Assembly (NCBI GenBank): GCA_903824515.1
Contig: CAIJXA010000074.1
Span: 1-16,687 of the forward strand
Direction: 5' to 3'
Origin: an uncultured bacterium
GTDB taxonomy: Bacteria > Patescibacteriota > Minisyncoccia > Moranbacterales > GWC2-37-73
DNA length: 16,687 nucleotides
In this document: piece by piece, positions 1,878-15,913 of the stretch
Numbering within the stretch: the stretch's first letter is position 1
Layout: every line of letters begins with the position of its first letter
The notes under the pieces: model-generated
Told to the model about the DNA's origin: nothing
The model's input: only the letters and a program-made list of their open reading frames with translations
The model's database searches: none
Position numbers and translations under genes: made by a program

Positions 1878-2023
1878 GTGTGGTTTTTTAATTTTCAATT
1901 TTAAATTTAAAATTTTTAAACAATTCTCAAATATCAAATTTTAAAATTTTTAATTTCAGCTAAGGGCTGATCCGCCGAGGGCGGACATTTCAAATTTCAA
2001 ATTAAAAATTTCAAATTAATTTT
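1878..2023 (+). promoter_or_regulatory. AT-rich repeated-motif leader upstream of dnaE; shares AATTTTCAATTTTAAAT and AAATTTCAAATTTCAAATT motifs with the thrS upstream region
   Basis: Motifs at 1881-1900 and 1993-2016 recur in the same order at 10990-11012 and 11072-11092. A small GC hairpin TCCGCC-GAG-GGCGGA (about 1961-1975) is embedded. No SD precedes the dnaE ATG. Confidence 0.4.
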
Positions 2024-5000: not shown

Positions 5001-5638
5001 AAAAGATTCTGACCAAGCGCCAAGAAACCATGCTCTTTGTGATGCTGGAGGACATGAAAGGCAAAATCGAAATTTTGGTTTTTCCAAAAGTGTTGGAAAA
5101 AATGGGCAGCGCTTGGGAAGAAGAAAAAATGATTATCGCTGAAGGAAAACTTTCCGACAAAGACGGCGCTTATAAATTAATTTGCGACGAAGTCCGTAAT
5201 CTTGACCGCAATGAAATCGAAAATTATTTGCGCGTTGAGGCCACCAAAAAAACTTACGCCAATAAAAATGATGATGAAAATCCTCACGGCGGAGCTGGCG
5301 TGGTCAATGACCAACATAGTTCAGTAATCAGTAACCAGTCATCAGTAACTAGTCACCAGAATTCAACAAACAATAATCCAGCACTTCTAGAGGCTGAGCC
5401 CCTAAAAGCTAGCGAAGCTAAAAGCTATAAGCTAATTGTGACCCTTCCCCAGGATGCCAATTCTGAAATGATTAGCAAGCTTTCCAAAACTTTCAATACT
5501 TGCCCATCAGGGCAGTGTAAAGTTTTTTTGCATCACCAAGCCAACAAACTTGAAACGCCTTTTTCTATCGAAAGCCAACCAAATATTCTCGATGAAATCA
5601 AAAACATTATTGCCGGAGGAACGGTTGAATTGATTTAA
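2024..5638 (+). CDS. dnaE: DNA polymerase III alpha subunit (DnaE), with C-terminal extension
   Basis: 1204-aa ORF. N-terminal PHP domain HLHVHSHYSLLDG, polymerase core motifs (e.g. GCITNGSTKEIAEKVFSFIEPFAGYGFNRSHAACYAIIGYQTAYLKAHYP) and an OB-fold region near aa 980-1060. About 145 extra residues lie after the OB fold. Confidence 0.95.
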   Translation: MKYTHLHVHSHYSLLDGLGKIDDLMDRAKELGMDSIALTDHGVMYGAVELFIKAKEKGIKPIIGCEMYITPNDLHSKNPIAEDRKRHHLILLVKNEEGYHNLMKLVSIAHLEGFYYKPRIDRKVLRQYAKGLIGLSACVEGEIPSQIVMGNYDKAKQLALEYQDIFDKDGFFLEVQSHTKFSNQAIANEGIFKLGKELNIPVVATCDVHYVNKEDASAQDILLCVQTNRKVDEVDRMNLMDFDLSLRSPEEVLAGFPENPEVLSNTQLVVDQCDFKLKLGETQLPHFDVPEGHTATSYLVELCEKGLKKKYKVEEITDVHRERMAYELSVIEKCGYASYFLIVQDFVNWAKDNGIIVGPGRGSAAGSFISYLTGITNVDPIEYNLLFERFLNPERVSMPDVDMDFADNRRDDVLNYVRQKYGNDHVSQIITFGTMAARAAIRDTGRALGFPYDFCNKTSQMIPMFTSIKKAIEEVPEFKELYHNNKDGKKLIDSAMRLEGVIRHAGMHACGVVITKEPVTYYSPIQNITGSREGTVTQYSSSTKSSYVEKIGLLKMDFLGLKNLTIIQDTLRIAKKIHGVDIDIDTIPIDDPEAFKLLQEARTTGVFQLESSGMKRYLKLLKPTVIEDIIAMVALYRPGPMDWIPDFISGKHGRKIKYVHPKLEPILANTYGVAVYQEQVMQIARDLAGFTMGEADVLRKAMGKKIFELIKEQKIKFVEGCITNGSTKEIAEKVFSFIEPFAGYGFNRSHAACYAIIGYQTAYLKAHYPAAFMAALLTSDQDNIDRIAIEASECREMGIQVLAPDVNESFEDFAVITEEDGSQRIRFGFNAIKNVGHVIAHEIVEERKRGGKFKSLADFLTRVETKDLNKKSIDALAKVGALDELGERNQIIESMEQILMFTKSMQKQKNSNQVSLFGQAILETPTVPLIETQPASKRQQLRWEKELLGLYVSGHPAQEYQGYIEKVAVPLDKLSKEMVGQKIAVGGVIQKVQKILTKRQETMLFVMLEDMKGKIEILVFPKVLEKMGSAWEEEKMIIAEGKLSDKDGAYKLICDEVRNLDRNEIENYLRVEATKKTYANKNDDENPHGGAGVVNDQHSSVISNQSSVTSHQNSTNNNPALLEAEPLKASEAKSYKLIVTLPQDANSEMISKLSKTFNTCPSGQCKVFLHHQANKLETPFSIESQPNILDEIKNIIAGGTVELI
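5317..5365 (+). repeat. Seven tandem heptamers (TAGTTCA GTAATCA GTAACCA GTCATCA GTAACTA GTCACCA GAATTCA) inside the dnaE 3' region
   Basis: Read directly from the sequence. Encodes the low-complexity stretch HSSVISNQSSVTSHQNS in the DnaE C-terminal extension. Confidence 0.7.
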
Positions 5639-10959: not shown

Positions 10960-11122
10960 GCCTTTTATTTTTGCAAATTTTAAATTTGAAATTTTCAATT
11001 TTAAATGAAATCTAAATGATTCAATGTTTAAAAATTTATTATTGAAAAATTAAGAAATTGATTAAAAATTTTAAATTTCAAATTTCAAATTTTTTTAATT
11101 AAACATAAGCAACTAAACTATT
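10960..11122 (+). promoter_or_regulatory. AT-rich repeated-motif block between the T-box terminator and the thrS start; shares motifs with the dnaE upstream region
   Basis: GAAATTTTCAATTTTAAAT (10990-11012) and TTTCAAATTTCAAATTTTTTT (11072-11092) parallel 1881-1900 and 1993-2016. No SD precedes the ATG. Confidence 0.4.
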
Positions 11123-12883: not shown

Positions 12884-12936
12884 TTTCCAACGAGCCGATA
12901 CGAAACCATGAAACAGATAAGAAGCTACGAACAACC

Positions 12937-14382
12937 ATGAAATACTACATCAAAACCTTCGGTTGCCAAATGAACGTTTCAGACAGCCAGCGCTTAGCCA
13001 CCTTTTTGGAAGCGCAAGGTTTTTCGCAGAGCACTGAAATGGGTAGTGCGGAACTGGTCATCTTCAACACTTGCGGAGTCAAGCAAACCGCTGAGAATAG
13101 AGCTTACAGCCTGATTAATAACTTACGCAAAGCTGAAAAAGCATCCCGCTTAAAAGCTAAAAACTTTAAACTAACAGCTATCATCATGACGGGTTGCCTT
13201 GCCAATCGCACCGACGTACAAAAAAGAATGGAGACAAAAGTTGATTTATTTTGCGAAATCAAAAACTTTCCGCAAGATTTTCAAAAACTAAATTTTTGTC
13301 ATCTTGAGCGAAATTCTTCTGATGAAAATCAGAAAAATGAAGTCGAAGGATCTGAGTCTAATACTAATTACGACAACATAAGATTTCTCGACTTCGCTCG
13401 AAATGACAACAGTCGCGACTATCTCAGCATAGTTCCCAAACATCAAAATAGTTTTGAGGCCTACGTCCCAATCATGACGGGCTGCAACAATTTCTGCACT
13501 TATTGTGTGGTGCCAAATGCCCGTGGCCGTGAAGTTTCTCGTCCAGCTGAGGAAATCATCACTGAAGTCAAAAAACTCGTTTCCAAGGGTTATAAAAATA
13601 TTATTTTACTCGGGCAGAATGTAAATTCATATCGTGGAACGTGGAGCGTGGAGCGTGGAGCGTTAAATGCAAAAGCTAAAGAAAAAATTGTGACCTTTTC
13701 AACCCTTCTCAAGAAAATAAACGCTATTTCGGGCAAATTTTGGATTCAATTTGTTTCATCTCACCCAAAGGATATGAGCGACGAACTGATTGAAGTAATG
13801 ACAAAGTGCCAAAAAGTTTGTGAAAATATTCATTTACCCGTGCAAGCTGGCGACGATGAGATTCTGCAAAAAATGAACCGGCACTACACCCAGAAACACT
13901 ATCTTAATCTCATCAAGCAAATTAACCAAGCTTTCGAGAAAAATAAACCTGGAAAAATATTTTCAATTTCATCAGACATCATCGTCGGTTTCCCAGGCGA
14001 AACTCGCAAAAAATTTTTACAGTCAGCTGAGGTGATGGAAAAAGCAAAATTCGACATGGTTTTCTTCGGACAATTTTCACCCCGGCCTGAAACCGCCGCT
14101 TGGAAAATGAAAGACAATGTTTCTCAAAAAGAAAAAACCCGTCGCGAACAATATCTAAATGAAATTCTCAAAAGAACTGCATTTGAAAATAATCAAAAAT
14201 ATCTCAATCAAACAGTTGAAGTGCTGATCGAACAACAAAAAGAAGCTTCTTATTTCGGCAAAACCAGGACACTGAAAAACGTTAAGATCGCAACGAGCGA
14301 GAAAGATTTGCTCGGAAAAATCGTGAAAGTTAAGATTACTAAGGCCAACGTTTGGAATTTAGAAGGAGAAGCTTTAAAGTAG
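12937..14382 (+). CDS. miaB: tRNA-2-methylthio-N6-dimethylallyladenosine synthase (MiaB-type radical-SAM methylthiotransferase)
   Basis: 481-aa ORF. N-terminal MTTase domain (IKTFGCQMNVSDS...NTCGVKQTAEN), radical SAM CNNFCTYCVVP, C-terminal TRAM domain. Adjacent to miaA. The linker between MTTase and radical SAM domains is unusually long and low-complexity. Confidence 0.85.
   Translation: MKYYIKTFGCQMNVSDSQRLATFLEAQGFSQSTEMGSAELVIFNTCGVKQTAENRAYSLINNLRKAEKASRLKAKNFKLTAIIMTGCLANRTDVQKRMETKVDLFCEIKNFPQDFQKLNFCHLERNSSDENQKNEVEGSESNTNYDNIRFLDFARNDNSRDYLSIVPKHQNSFEAYVPIMTGCNNFCTYCVVPNARGREVSRPAEEIITEVKKLVSKGYKNIILLGQNVNSYRGTWSVERGALNAKAKEKIVTFSTLLKKINAISGKFWIQFVSSHPKDMSDELIEVMTKCQKVCENIHLPVQAGDDEILQKMNRHYTQKHYLNLIKQINQAFEKNKPGKIFSISSDIIVGFPGETRKKFLQSAEVMEKAKFDMVFFGQFSPRPETAAWKMKDNVSQKEKTRREQYLNEILKRTAFENNQKYLNQTVEVLIEQQKEASYFGKTRTLKNVKIATSEKDLLGKIVKVKITKANVWNLEGEALK
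13633..13663 (+). repeat. In-frame heptamer tandem array (CGTGGAA CGTGGAG CGTGGAG CGTGGAG CGT) inside miaB
   Basis: Read directly from the sequence. Encodes GTWSVERGA at a position where E. coli MiaB has a shorter loop (NVNAWRGENYDG...). Confidence 0.8.
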
Positions 14383-14607
14383 ATTTTAGATTTCTGATTT
14401 TGGAATTTTTGTATTTTGTGTTTGCATCTTGTATTTCTCCTGCACCATATGAAGTACGTAGGCGAAAAACAAGTGATGAGCGTTAAGAAATTTTCAGCGA
14501 GCTTTGTCAGCAGACAAAGTGCAGCGGGAATTTTAGCGAAGAATGCAGTTTTTGCCACAGTATCTTCATCCGGTGCGAGTTTTTCTTTCCTCCAGGTTTC
14601 TTTTTGC

Positions 14608-14674
14608 GGAAAAAAGAAATGTGGAAATGAAAATTTTTCCTTTTTGTAACTTTTCTTAGCTAAAAAGAAAAGTT
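14608..14674 (+). promoter_or_regulatory. Two hairpins in the 312-nt miaB-miaA spacer: a weak AU-rich terminator-like hairpin with T5 run (14608-14645) and a 10-bp perfect hairpin AACTTTTCTT-AGCTAAA-AAGAAAAGTT (14648-14674) 20 nt before the miaA ATG
   Basis: GGAAAAA (14608-14614) / TTTTTCC (14634-14640) then TTTTT. The second hairpin was read directly from the sequence. Function unknown (attenuator, or masking of the translation initiation region). Confidence 0.35.
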
Positions 14675-14694
14675 AGCTCCTGAATTTAAAAACT

Positions 14695-15693
14695 ATGGAA
14701 AAAAACAAACCAAAAATAATAGTCATCATGGGTCCCACTGCCTCAGGCAAATCAGGCGTGGCAATTAAACTTGCGCAGAAATTCGACGGCGAAATCATCT
14801 CCGCTGACAGTCGACAAATATACAAAGGACTCGACATTGGCTCAGGCAAAGTTTGTGGAGCGTGGAGCGTGGAGCGTGGAGCCTTTATTTCAGAAGGCAT
14901 CCCCCATCATTTGATTGATGTGGCTAAGCCTCAAGAAGATTTTAATGTAAGCCACTTCAAGAAACTGGCGCAAGAAAAAATTGGGGAAATTCTCAGTCGC
15001 AAAAAAGTTCCCATCATCTGCGGAGGAACGGCTTTTTGGATTGACACCTTGACTAAAAATTCCAACATTCCAGAAGTTGCCCCCAATGAAAAATTGCGAG
15101 CCAGACTTGCCAAGAAAAGTGTTGAGCAACTTTTTACCCAGCTTAAAAAACTCGATCCAGTCAGAGCAAGCGACATCGATGGTCAAAATAAGGTACGCCT
15201 CATTCGCGCAATTGAAATTTGCAAGGTGTTGGGCCATGTTCCAAAACGTGAAACGTGGAACGTGGAACGTGGAACGGAAAATACAAAATACGAGATACAA
15301 AATACAAAATACAACTTTCTAGAAATTGGAATTGAGGTGCCCAGGGAAATCCTGAACGCCAAAATCAAAAAACGTTTGGATGAACGTTTTGCCGAAGGCA
15401 TGACCCAAGAAGTTGAAAACCTGAATGAAAAGGGCGTTTCATGGCAGTGGTTGGAGCGCATCGGCTTGGAATATCGCTGGATTTCCAGATTTTTGCAAGG
15501 CAAAATAGAACTAGGAGAAATGTCCACCCAAGGCGTATGCACTTCGGGCGCAAAACAAAAATTATATTTTGACAGCATTCACTATGCCAAACGTCAAATG
15601 ACTTGGCTACAAAGAAACAAAAGTATTATTTGGCACAGCGATTATGAAGAAATTGAAAAAGAAGTTGAAAATTTCTTAGAACAAAATACTTAA
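14695..15693 (+). CDS. miaA: tRNA dimethylallyltransferase (MiaA)
   Basis: 332-aa ORF with P-loop GPTASGKSGVA and the signature DSRQIYKGLDIGSGK. Two insertions relative to canonical MiaA coincide with heptamer arrays. Confidence 0.9.
   Translation: MEKNKPKIIVIMGPTASGKSGVAIKLAQKFDGEIISADSRQIYKGLDIGSGKVCGAWSVERGAFISEGIPHHLIDVAKPQEDFNVSHFKKLAQEKIGEILSRKKVPIICGGTAFWIDTLTKNSNIPEVAPNEKLRARLAKKSVEQLFTQLKKLDPVRASDIDGQNKVRLIRAIEICKVLGHVPKRETWNVERGTENTKYEIQNTKYNFLEIGIEVPREILNAKIKKRLDERFAEGMTQEVENLNEKGVSWQWLERIGLEYRWISRFLQGKIELGEMSTQGVCTSGAKQKLYFDSIHYAKRQMTWLQRNKSIIWHSDYEEIEKEVENFLEQNT
14854..14881 (+). repeat. In-frame heptamer tandem array (TGTGGAG CGTGGAG CGTGGAG CGTGGAG) inside miaA (site 1)
   Basis: Encodes CGAWSVERGA between DIGSGKV and ISEGIPHHLID. 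It has the same unit as the miaB array. Confidence 0.8.
15247..15312 (+). repeat. Composite in-frame array inside miaA (site 2): 4 x CGTGRAA (15247-15274) immediately followed by 5 x AAAATAC/GAGATAC (15278-15312)
   Basis: Nine heptamers total 63 nt (21 codons) and encode ETWNVERGTENTKYEIQNTKYN, an insertion relative to E. coli MiaA. Confidence 0.8.
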
Positions 15694-15913
15694 AACCAAA
15701 ATTGAAAATTAAAAACCACCTATAGGAGAGTTAATAGTCAATTAATGTTGGTAAAAACATCGTTTCTGCACTAAGCTAAGCGGATAATCAATATGAAAGT
15801 TAAACTGGTTCATTCCGAATTTTCCGAACAACAAAAATCCGCTTCGACGTGTTCGTATGCCGCTCGGCTCAGGACACGGACCTGAGGTAATGAAGGGGTC
15901 GGACGCATGCGGA

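What the first reader, a model, noticed from the sequence alone, without database searches (positions are those of the whole stretch)
13633..15275. The heptamer CGTGGAR recurs as 4-copy in-frame tandem arrays at three sites in two adjacent tRNA-modification genes
CGTGGAG/CGTGGAA x4 occurs at 13633-13663 (miaB), 14854-14881 (miaA) and 15247-15274 (miaA). Each lies at a surface-loop position where canonical MiaB/MiaA are shorter, and each yields a W(S/N)VERG peptide. A 7-nt unit preserves frame only in multiples of three, so these arrays are either slippage-prone (phase-variable) or maintained precisely in frame. Multiple insertions of the same short tandem array into essential genes recall in-frame invasion by palindromic elements (Rickettsia RPE-like), here with a microsatellite unit. 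I am not aware of this being described.
Basis: seen in the sequence. Interest (0 to 1): 0.7.

Follow-up and report, generated by a model that had tools for sequence, protein, structure and literature searches.

The report
Translated heptamer repeat arrays in tRNA-modification genes
Three short runs of a repeated 7-base unit sit in frame inside two housekeeping genes of an uncultured Moranbacteria bacterium. They belong to the known but unexplained class of bacterial heptamer tandem repeats, here retained for a long time inside enzyme loops and not acting as on/off switches.

Summary
CGTGGAR arrays of about 4 units lie at 13633-13663 (miaB), 14855-14882 and 15244-15280 (miaA). All are in frame, all encode W(S/N)VERG, and all sit where solved MiaB/MiaA structures have 8-10-residue gaps.

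They are not an isolated oddity or recent insertions. Period 7 is the only over-represented tandem period in the window, and it dominates 142 kb of related Moranbacteria DNA. Several unit families occur, about half the arrays are intergenic, and the rest lie in variable protein loops.

Orthologous MiaA/MiaB loops in relatives carry the same array as (GGAGCGT)4, (GGAGCAT)3-4 or (GGAACGT)4. Others carry decayed copies of equal length, or other heptamer or palindromic inserts. Units change together while loop length stays fixed.

Copy number is identical in at least 11 contigs of this strain, so phase variation is not supported. Arrays have no fixed ends, so they are not cassette-like mobile elements.

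Best reading: STRR-like heptanucleotide simple repeats, made and homogenised by slippage or conversion, and filtered by reading frame and loop tolerance. Heptamer repeats are known. This conserved, in-frame, concertedly evolving form in candidate phyla radiation (CPR) housekeeping enzymes appears undescribed. Recurrence of the unit and the cap near 4.6 units remain unexplained.

The parts
12937..14382 (+). miaB (tRNA methylthiotransferase), host gene of array 1
   Evidence: TIGR01574 scores 376 bits against a cutoff of 355. It aligns to solved MiaB 7mjv.
13633..13663 (+). Array 1: CGTGGAA CGTGGAG CGTGGAG CGTGGAG CGT, translated as RGTWSVERGA
   Evidence: There is a 10-residue gap in 7mjv immediately after the conserved NSYR. 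The orthologous loop holds equal-length decayed copies in L085 and L210, and other repeats in L083, L084, L207, L208, L209 and L211.
14695..15693 (+). miaA (tRNA dimethylallyltransferase), host gene of arrays 2 and 3
   Evidence: TIGR00174 scores 208 bits. It aligns to 2qgn, 3d3q and 2zm5. The AlphaFold model has mean pLDDT 81.
14855..14882 (+). Array 2: (GTGGAGC)x4.0, translated as CGAWSVERGA (MiaA loop 1)
   Evidence: There is an 8-residue gap in 2qgn. The array is identical over 28/28 nt in L084 and L085, although four-fold sites in the rest of the gene are only about 50% identical. L207 has (GGAGCAT)3 here and L208 has (GGAACGT)4.4.
15244..15280 (+). Array 3: AAACGTG AAACGTG GAACGTG GAACGTG GAACG, translated as KRETWNVERGT (MiaA loop 2)
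   Evidence: There is a 10-residue gap in 2qgn and pLDDT is below 50 at residues 187-199. The window is a net 27 nt longer here than L083-L085. The same site holds (GGAGCAT)4.1 in L209, x3.4 in L210 and a decayed copy in L211.
15278..15314 (+). Adjacent second heptamer array (AAAATAC)x5.3, translated as ENTKYEIQNTKYN, in the same loop
   Evidence: Relatives have a heptamer-periodic stretch at the same position: AAAATAC AAGTAAC TAGTAAT CAGAAAC TAGTAAC TAAATAC.
14380..14436 (.). Intergenic heptamer arrays TAGATTT x3.1 and TTTTGTA x4.4 (the latter is the reverse complement of the AAAATAC family) just after the miaB stop codon
   Evidence: sequence.
5321..5435 (+). Two heptamer arrays in the dnaE C-terminal tail: TCAGTAA/CAGTCAT and CTAAAAG
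   Evidence: They show that the phenomenon is not confined to miaA and miaB.
1885..2017 (.). AT-rich heptamer arrays (TTTTAAA x4.6, ATTTCAA x4.4) directly upstream of the dnaE start codon (2024)
   Evidence: They sit at the same place in L085 and L209. The L085 copy has 9.4 units against 4.6 here, so copy number varies in non-coding DNA.
10975..11092 (.). AT-rich heptamer arrays (AAATTTT x4.6, AAATTTC x3.9) upstream of the thrS start codon (11123)
   Evidence: They sit at the same place in L083.

Best explanation
The three arrays belong to a dispersed family (unit GGARCRT, the same as CGTGGAR) of heptanucleotide simple-sequence repeats. They are of the same kind as the cyanobacterial STRR sequences.

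Mechanism:
- Inferred: a lineage-wide mutational process that favours 7-nt tandem duplication (replication slippage or template switching, with gene conversion) creates arrays of about 3-4.6 units all over these Moranbacteria genomes and keeps homogenising them.
- Shown: the arrays are densest in intergenic DNA.
- Shown and arithmetical: inside genes only arrays that pass a filter survive. The net added length must be a multiple of 3. This happens, for example, with one seed unit plus three extra units (+21 nt), or through a compensating change in a neighbouring array, as with the net +27 nt at site 3. The array must also contain no stop codon, and its peptide must be tolerated in a surface loop. 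Because 7 and 3 share no factor, any frame of the array gives the same cyclic heptapeptide (R-G-A-W-S-V-E).
- Shown: once fixed, an array is translated as part of the loop. It persists through speciation at constant length. It then either decays by point mutation or stays perfectly periodic, with all units changing alike (concerted evolution).

The arrays are passengers or structural filler of variable loops of MiaB and MiaA. They are not switches.
For: Period-7 excess:
- Six exact runs in the window against 0.03 expected.
- TRF finds 71 period-7 arrays against at most 20 for any other period in 142 kb from 8 Moranbacteria loci. 36 of the 71 lie outside long ORFs.
- In 1.42 Mb of Patescibacteria loci, 26 exact arrays of at least 3.1 units have period 7, against 0-3 for periods 5, 6 and 8-11.

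Several unit families recur at several loci: GGARCRT, AAAATAC/AAGATAC, AGCTAAA, CAGTAAC/GTCAGTT, CAACAAT and AAATTTC.

No cassette structure. Among the GGARCRT arrays found in metagenome contigs and not cut by a contig end, start and end phases cover all seven positions, and 103/121 are pure for one unit variant.

Orthologous arrays:
- Loop 1 holds (GGAGCGT)4 in the window, L084 and L085, (GGAGCAT)3 in L207 and (GGAACGT)4.4 in L208. It is decayed in L209 and L210. Loop length is the same in all of them.
- The array is 28/28 identical where four-fold sites are about 50% identical. L207 and L208 are 88.5% identical overall yet differ in every unit.

Non-coding arrays vary in copy number: 4.6 against 9.4 units upstream of dnaE.

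Stability of the coding arrays: identical proteins in at least 11 contigs and identical DNA in two other samples.

The arrays map to gaps in solved structures and to low-pLDDT loops.

Literature. Heptanucleotide repeats are the most abundant long simple-sequence repeat class in many prokaryotes, and polymerase slippage has been proposed as their origin (Mrazek 2007, as summarised in PMC4679880 and PMC4692102). They are the most abundant tandem repeat in intergenic regions of 7,006 genomes, with no clue to function (10.1101/309039).
Against: - Plain slippage does not explain why the same unit family occupies three separate loops within 1.6 kb, and also loops of YchF, TatD, PriA, FemAB-like and PyrK proteins in other contigs.
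- It does not explain why perfect arrays stop at about 4.6 units.
- It does not explain why GGARCRT arrays peak at 27-33 nt rather than at the 23-nt detection floor.
- Homogenisation at fixed in-frame length needs either steps of three units or conversion without length change. Neither was observed directly.
- These lineages are recombination mosaics. Some 'concerted' differences, and the 28/28 identity, could therefore reflect import of whole array alleles rather than in-array homogenisation.
- No read-level data were available.
Confidence: 0.6

Rival explanations
1. Mobile micro-element. Pre-formed GGARCRT arrays of about 28 nt spread between sites and genomes by an active or homology-driven insertion or ectopic-conversion mechanism. 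This would be a microsatellite-type analogue of RPE in-frame invasion. Loops are where such insertions are tolerated.
For: - The same unit occurs at three loops within 1.6 kb, in an rplK-nusG spacer of L085, and in unrelated housekeeping genes of other contigs.
- Length peaks at 27-33 nt.
- Different repeat families replace each other at the same loop in close relatives.
- Mosaic boundaries between the window and L083 coincide with the two miaA loops.
- Genuine palindromic in-frame elements are present in the same gene.
Against: - There are no fixed termini. Start and end phases are spread over all 7 positions, and no conserved flanks were seen.
- The arrays have no inverted repeats.
- The site-1 and miaB arrays are orthologous and old, not recent insertions.
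- No associated enzyme was identified.
Confidence: 0.17
2. Functional nucleic-acid motif. The heptamer arrays, on DNA or mRNA, are bound by a protein (for example a cold-shock-type OB-fold protein that reads heptamers) or form a structure. They would tune replication, transcription, translation speed or mRNA stability. The roughly four-unit length and the nucleotide-level conservation would then be selected.
For: - The array is conserved 28/28 at synonymous sites.
- The habit of about 4 units also holds in non-coding DNA.
- AT-rich arrays sit at fixed positions just upstream of the dnaE and thrS start codons in several genomes.
- The literature proposes regulatory roles and CspB binding of heptamer repeats (PMC4679880) and a four-unit preference in GGGAATC arrays (PMC4692102).
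Against: - Many orthologues let the array decay or replace it with unrelated repeats without losing the gene.
- No G-quadruplex is predicted, and folding is only weak.
- No Rfam family matches.
- No binding factor was identified.
Confidence: 0.1
3. Peptide-level function. The W-S-V-E-R-G loop is selected as protein, for example as a tRNA or partner contact, and the DNA periodicity is secondary.
For: - Trp is kept in most decayed site-1 and miaB copies, such as GAWSTEHKT, GIWSMKREV and HGIWNAECE.
- Loop length is constant, with 40 of 117 orthologues having a 17-residue loop 1.
- AlphaFold draws a weak beta-hairpin at residues 56-66.
Against: - Perfect periodicity at synonymous positions is not explained by selection on the peptide.
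- Other orthologues have the canonical 9-residue loop or quite different inserts.
- pLDDT is low.
- The same peptide occurs in unrelated proteins and in both orientations.
Confidence: 0.08
4. Contingency locus. Slippage by one unit more or fewer switches miaB or miaA off and on (phase variation), modulating tRNA modification.
For: A 7-nt unit changes the frame with each unit gained or lost. Heptanucleotide phase variation exists in Haemophilus and in E. coli neuO (listed).
Against: - All assemblies of this strain (at least 11 contigs) and all orthologues are in frame with the same loop length.
- Four units is short for a high slippage rate.
- The genes are housekeeping genes, and one of them carries two arrays.
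Confidence: 0.05

Closest known systems
Cyanobacterial STRR (short tandemly repeated repetitive) heptanucleotide sequences (Mazel et al. 1990, cited from my own knowledge and noted in PMC4692102). STRR also occur inside the RNase P RNA gene (Vioque 1997, title seen).
   Same: Several 7-nt unit families per genome. Arrays are short, tandem and dispersed, mostly intergenic, but also tolerated inside variable parts of functional genes. Origin and function are unknown.
   Different: The units are different and the phylum is different (CPR/Patescibacteria). Here the arrays lie in frame in catalytic-domain loops of protein enzymes, are retained across speciation and evolve in concert. Membership of a 'family' can only be by analogy, because STRR are defined descriptively.
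TAACTGA direct repeats of Beggiatoaceae, Cyanobacteria and Bacteroidetes (MacGregor 2015, PMC4679880)
   Same: Unit-specific heptamer arrays of 2-6 copies, often just upstream of start codons. The reverse orientation is translatable (LSVISYQ). Strain differences come in 7-nt steps. No transfer mechanism is known. A related unit (GTCAGTT, giving LSVVSYE) fills MiaA loop 2 in L207 and L208.
   Different: [quoted passage not shown] Here the arrays are internal to conserved enzymes and orthologously conserved.
GGGAATC / GGGGAYT repeats of Xanthomonas and Nostoc (Rehm 2015, PMC4692102)
   Same: [quoted passage not shown] The repeats are positionally conserved between relatives, with sequence and length variation.
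   Different: [quoted passage not shown] GGARCRT has only GG tracts, no quadruplex is predicted, and the arrays studied here are coding.
Rickettsia palindromic elements (RPE) and other intragenic MITEs (PMC10969869)
   Same: Repeated DNA inserted in frame into unrelated housekeeping genes at positions compatible with the fold. A true analogue is present in miaB at 13296-13410.
   Different: RPEs are about 100-150 bp palindromic elements of fixed sequence. The arrays are 28-37 nt direct tandem repeats without inverted repeats or fixed ends.
Phase-variable simple-sequence contingency loci (Haemophilus, Neisseria; PMC2651432, PMC3315296)
   Same: A tandem repeat within an ORF whose unit length is not a multiple of 3.
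   Different: No copy-number variation was seen. The genes are housekeeping genes, the arrays are short, and they are conserved in frame across species.

Membership tests
Prokaryotic heptanucleotide SSR / STRR-like dispersed repeats | Head-to-tail tandem copies of a 7-nt unit | tested here: met
   TRF gives period 7 with 4.0-5.4 copies and 90-100% matches at all three sites.
Prokaryotic heptanucleotide SSR / STRR-like dispersed repeats | The same unit is dispersed at many loci, and several unit families occur per genome | tested here: met
   There are three GGARCRT arrays in the window and further ones in relatives, including an intergenic one in L085. At least 6 recurrent unit families were found.
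Prokaryotic heptanucleotide SSR / STRR-like dispersed repeats | Period 7 is over-represented relative to neighbouring periods | tested here: met
   6 against 0.03 expected; 26 against 0-3; 71 against at most 20.
Prokaryotic heptanucleotide SSR / STRR-like dispersed repeats | Enrichment in intergenic DNA | tested here: met
   36 of 71 arrays lie outside long ORFs in the 8 loci. The gene tables of these loci show short intergenic spacers, but the non-coding fraction was not computed. The three arrays of the finding are themselves coding.
Prokaryotic heptanucleotide SSR / STRR-like dispersed repeats | Copy-number differences in 7-nt steps between related genomes | tested here: inconclusive
   This was seen in non-coding arrays (4.6 against 9.4 units upstream of dnaE). 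It was not seen in the coding arrays, whose loop length is constant. Only a few loci were compared.
RPE / MITE-type in-frame palindromic elements | Terminal inverted repeats or palindromic structure | tested here: not met
   The inverted-repeat scan of 12900-15750 finds nothing at the arrays. Array folds are weak, at -8 to -17 kcal/mol including flanks.
RPE / MITE-type in-frame palindromic elements | Defined element ends and conserved full-length sequence | tested here: not met
   Start and end phases of 121 arrays are spread over all 7 positions, and lengths range from 23 to 97 nt.
RPE / MITE-type in-frame palindromic elements | In-frame insertion into unrelated housekeeping genes at tolerated sites | tested here: met
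   MiaB and MiaA here. YchF, TatD, PriA, FemAB-like and PyrK by my reading of conserved motifs in the translated ORFs; no family search was run on them. The sites are gaps against solved structures.
Phase-variable SSR contingency locus | Repeat-number polymorphism that shifts the reading frame within a population or between strains | tested here: not met
   Proteins are identical in at least 11 contigs, DNA is identical in 2 other samples, and all orthologues are in frame. Read-level heterogeneity cannot be tested with these tools.
G-quadruplex-forming heptamer repeats (GGGNATC type) | Four G-tracts of at least 3 G that can form a G4 | tested here: not met
   The unit has only GG. ViennaRNA with G-quadruplex energies predicts hairpins and no G4.

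The most novel reading that the evidence does not exclude
Heptamer arrays may be the product of a unit-specific, length-limited 'array-writing' or homogenising process. Candidates are templated synthesis, or ectopic conversion between dispersed arrays. Such a process would keep arrays of about 4 units of a few preferred units throughout the genome, including inside essential genes. That would make them a microsatellite-type selfish or domesticated element shared by very different bacteria. The orthologous, frame-locked arrays in CPR MiaA and MiaB would then be a natural time series for measuring that process, and so a handle on the unexplained 'prime-number periodicity' of prokaryotic DNA.
Probability: 0.15. 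Interest if true: 0.8.

Novelty: new variant of a known kind. Interest (0 to 1): 0.5.

Why it matters
Tandem heptamer repeats are reported as the most abundant short tandem repeat in prokaryotic intergenic DNA, yet their origin and function are unknown (10.1101/309039; PMC4692102).

Arrays locked inside conserved enzymes give something that intergenic arrays do not. They have unambiguous orthology, a hard length constraint from the reading frame, and a neutral yardstick in the synonymous sites of the same gene. Here these show that the arrays persist through speciation, change all units together, or decay.

This makes the rates of homogenisation, replacement and decay measurable. It also gives a direct test of slippage against conversion against selection on DNA.

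The finding further shows that housekeeping proteins of candidate phyla radiation (CPR) bacteria carry hypervariable loops built from genomic repeat DNA: heptamer arrays and palindromic elements. This matters for annotation, for alignment-based phylogeny and for structure prediction in these lineages.

Tried and rejected
- Assembly artefact: rejected. DNA is identical in other samples and the arrays are orthologous in 8 genomes.
- G-quadruplex: rejected. None is predicted.
- Known RNA family in the window: none at Rfam gathering thresholds.
- tRNA or tmRNA genes: none.
Closer relatives had to be fetched one at a time through the look-up of encoding contigs. Three places had no DNA on file.
- A search of the fetched loci for further copies of the miaB palindromic element found only the orthologous copy in L083. 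Its status as a dispersed repeat therefore rests on my recollection of similar peptides and on a second element type at the same site in L211.
- Literature searches for heptamer repeats in Patescibacteria, CPR or Moranbacteria found nothing in the held library. This is not proof of absence.
- Vioque 1997 could not be read.
- I ran no further search on the WSVERGA peptide, because the metagenome DNA scan had already shown a wide distribution.


Full report
**1. The observation**

The sequence shows CGTGGAA CGTGGAG CGTGGAG CGTGGAG CGT at 13633-13663. It shows t GTGGAGC GTGGAGC GTGGAGC GTGGAGC at 14855-14882. It shows AAACGTG AAACGTG GAACGTG GAACGTG GAACG at 15244-15280.

CGTGGAR occurs 16 times in the window against 2.6 expected, with a maximum of 7 in 200 dinucleotide shuffles.

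The ORFs are intact. ORF 12937-14382 is MiaB (TIGR01574 above its cutoff) and ORF 14695-15693 is MiaA (TIGR00174). The arrays read RGTWSVERGA, CGAWSVERGA and RETWNVERGT.

Against solved structures each array falls in a gap. In MiaB it is 10 residues, directly after the conserved NSYR of 7mjv. In MiaA the gaps are 8 and 10 residues against 2qgn. In an AlphaFold model of MiaA (mean pLDDT 81) the two sites are the least confident parts, with residues 187-199 below 50.

One detail to add is that the first copy is imperfect at two of the sites.

**2. The arrays are part of something larger**

TRF on the window lists period-7 arrays at 12 places. Besides the three, these are:
- (AAAATAC)x5.3, directly abutting array 3 at 15278-15314
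- two arrays in the dnaE C-terminal tail (5321-5435)
- two AT-rich arrays upstream of dnaE (1885-2017)
- two AT-rich arrays upstream of thrS (10975-11092)
- two arrays just after the miaB stop codon (14380-14436), one of which is the reverse complement of AAAATAC

Exact period-7 runs number 6 against 0.03 expected. Periods 5, 6 and 8 give none.

MiaA homologues place the window in Candidatus Moranbacteria, within the CPR/Patescibacteria.

In 142 kb from eight Moranbacteria loci with the same thrS-miaB-miaA synteny, TRF finds 71 period-7 arrays. The next most frequent periods, 14 and 9, have 20 each. Thirty-five arrays lie in long ORFs and 36 outside them.

In 1.42 Mb of Patescibacteria loci, 26 exact arrays of at least 3.1 units have period 7, against 0-3 for periods 5, 6 and 8-11. 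None exceeds 4.6 units.

A handful of unit families recur: GGARCRT, AAAATAC/AAGATAC, AGCTAAA, CAGTAAC/GTCAGTT, CAACAAT and AAATTTC.

**3. Orthologous loops**

DNA of seven relatives was fetched and compared.

MiaA loop 1:
- (GGAGCGT)4 in the window, L084 and L085
- (GGAGCAT)3 in L207
- (GGAACGT)4.4 in L208
- Decayed copies in L209 (GGAGCAT GGAGCAC TGAGCAT) and L210
- All of the above have exactly the same loop length
- L083 and L211 instead carry (AAGATAC)x3-4 plus further repeat-derived sequence

MiaA loop 2:
- GGAACGT array plus AAAATAC array in the window
- (GGAGCAT)4.1 in L209 and x3.4 in L210
- A decayed copy in L211
- A GTCAGTT-type array (LSVVSYE) in L207 and L208
- A mixed heptamer stretch in L083-L085

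The window is a net 27 nt longer at loop 2 than L083-L085. By my count of the sequences, this is 34 nt of family-A array minus one 7-nt unit of the neighbouring array, which keeps the frame.

MiaB loop:
- Family A in the window
- Equal-length decayed copies in L085 (CATGGAA TATGGAA CGCGGAA TGTGAAA) and L210
- (CAACAAT)x3.9 in L208
- A 9-mer x4 in L207
- A hairpin-rich insert in L083 and L084

Among 120 MiaA homologues, 3 have the canonical 9-residue loop 1. Forty have the 17-residue form derived from family A, intact or decayed. The rest have other inserts of up to 53 residues, many of them recognisably heptamer-derived (KIQDTRY, SSVISHQ) or derived from palindromic elements (CHPELVSGS...KQVQHD).

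The arrays are therefore old and orthologous, and the loops are hypervariable sinks for repeat DNA.

**4. Concerted evolution and stability**

Between the window and L084 or L085, third positions of identical four-fold codons are only 49-52% identical. The 28-nt array, which contains six four-fold sites, is nevertheless identical in all three. L207 and L208 are 88.5% identical in miaA but differ at two positions of every unit.

In metagenome contigs, 103 of 121 GGARCRT arrays are pure for one of the four unit variants.

So units change together. This could come from in-array slippage or conversion, from conversion between arrays, or from import of whole alleles by recombination. I cannot separate these.

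Recombination is real here. The window and L083 are 99-100% identical over 14887-15233 and 14159-14238 and 55-85% identical elsewhere. The block in miaA is bounded by the two repeat-filled loops.

At the level of assemblies the coding arrays are stable. The MiaA and MiaB proteins of this strain occur unchanged in at least 11 contigs, and two contigs from other samples are 100% identical in DNA.

Non-coding arrays do vary, with 4.6 against 9.4 units upstream of dnaE.

**5. Wider distribution and anatomy of the family**

- Of the 123 arrays not cut by a contig end, lengths peak at 27-33 nt (75 arrays). Only 15 fall at 23-26 nt, which is the detection floor.
- In low-GC contigs the arrays sit in frame in several other proteins: YchF, TatD, a FemAB-like protein and PriA in the sense orientation (peptide MEHGTWN), and PyrK in the antisense orientation (peptide STLHAPR). 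These protein names come from my reading of conserved motifs in the translated ORFs, not from a family search.

**6. Mechanism**

The best-supported reading is that these are STRR-like heptanucleotide simple-sequence repeats.

Shown:
- Period-7 excess
- Several dispersed unit families
- Many arrays in non-coding DNA
- No fixed ends
- Homogeneity within arrays
- Orthologous persistence at fixed length
- Decay in some lineages
- Positions in loops
- In-frame status

Inferred: generation and homogenisation by replication slippage, template switching or gene conversion. The cited literature attributes the slippage idea for heptamers to Mrazek 2007 (PMC4679880, PMC4692102). Also inferred is a selective filter in genes, requiring net length divisible by 3, no stop codon, a tolerable peptide and a permissive loop.

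Because 7 and 3 share no factor, every frame of an array yields the same cyclic heptapeptide. This explains why all three sites read W(S/N)VERG without any need for a common frame.

Not explained by this model:
- Recurrence of one unit family in many loops
- The ceiling near 4.6 units and the 27-33-nt peak, which also hold outside genes, so '1+3 units' cannot be the whole story
- The way homogenisation proceeds without passing through out-of-frame states

G-quadruplex formation, which was proposed for the four-unit preference of GGGAATC repeats (PMC4692102), is not predicted here.

**7. Comparison with what is known**

Closest are three groups:
- Cyanobacterial STRR sequences, which also sit inside the RNase P RNA gene (title seen)
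- TAACTGA repeats (PMC4679880)
- GGGAATC/GGGGAYT repeats (PMC4692102)

A survey of 7,006 genomes states that tandem heptamers are the most abundant repeat in intergenic regions and that there is no clue to their function (10.1101/309039).

The arrays fail the defining tests for RPE/MITE elements (no palindrome, no fixed ends) and for contingency loci (no copy-number polymorphism). A genuine RPE-like element does lie in miaB at 13296-13410.

I found no report of heptamer arrays in CPR bacteria, or of orthologously conserved, concertedly evolving heptamer arrays inside housekeeping enzymes. The library is incomplete, so this is provisional.

**8. Verdict**

- Observation: confirmed.
- Interpretation: partly supported. 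A repeat-specific mutational process applies and the parallel with in-frame invasion holds. Recent insertion, phase variation and an undescribed class do not.
- Novelty: a new variant of a known kind.
- Interest: moderate (0.5). The class is known, but this setting offers a rare way to measure how heptamer arrays are made and maintained.

Noticed in passing
window 13296-13410 (inside miaB): An in-frame imperfect palindrome, TGTCATCTTGAGCGAA ... TTCGCTCGAAATGACA, with peptide CHLERNSS...RFLDFARNDN. It folds as one long hairpin (-40.8 kcal/mol, z = -4.5). It is present in L083 and absent in L084 and L085. L211 has a different palindromic element at the same site (peptide CHPELASGS...VRNDRK). This is the real RPE/MITE-like in-frame insertion in these genes.
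   Followed up: partly
window 15510-15553 (inside miaA): A third lineage-variable insert (STQGVCTSGAKQ). Solved MiaA 2qgn has gaps of 4 and 6 residues there, and pLDDT is below 50 at residues 280-282. It is present in only some orthologues (variants such as GEMSAQGGCASGAKE).
   Followed up: partly
window 14383-14694 (miaB-miaA spacer): The spacer is 312 nt long and largely unalignable to L083-L085. It folds better than shuffles (z = -3.1), with a long hairpin around 14440-14575. Contigs of the same strain from two other samples begin at 14542 and 14574, which suggests a repeat or heterogeneity there. There is no Rfam match.
   Followed up: partly
window 1987-2017 and 11066-11092: (ATTTCAA)x4.4 ends 7 nt before the dnaE ATG, and (AAATTTC)x3.9 ends 31 nt before the thrS ATG. 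The same arrays sit at the same places in L083, L085 and L209. This resembles the TAACTGA and TTCAAAA arrays just upstream of start codons in Beggiatoaceae and Nostoc, and may point to a 5'-UTR role.
   Followed up: partly
window 14159-14238 and 14887-15233 versus L083: The window and L083 form a recombination mosaic. They are 99-100% identical in these blocks and 55-85% identical elsewhere. The miaA block is bounded by the two repeat-filled loops.
   Followed up: partly
window 5321-5435 (dnaE C-terminal tail): Two more translated heptamer arrays: TCAGTAA/CAGTCAT gives SSVISNQSSVTSHQ, and CTAAAAG gives LKASEAKSYKL. The first unit differs by one base from the reverse complement of the TAACTGA repeat.
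   Followed up: no
L084 12605-14528: Genes for a reverse transcriptase (RVT_1) and a bAvd-like accessory protein, which looks like a diversity-generating retroelement. They lie 1.7 kb downstream of miaA in a close relative and are not present in the window.
   Followed up: no
L118 1391-1549 and L102, L158, L129 (metagenome contigs): Much longer or clustered GGARCRT arrays (up to 97 nt, and four arrays within 160 nt). They form ORFs made almost entirely of the WNVERGT heptapeptide, so the cap near 4.6 units is not universal.
   Followed up: no
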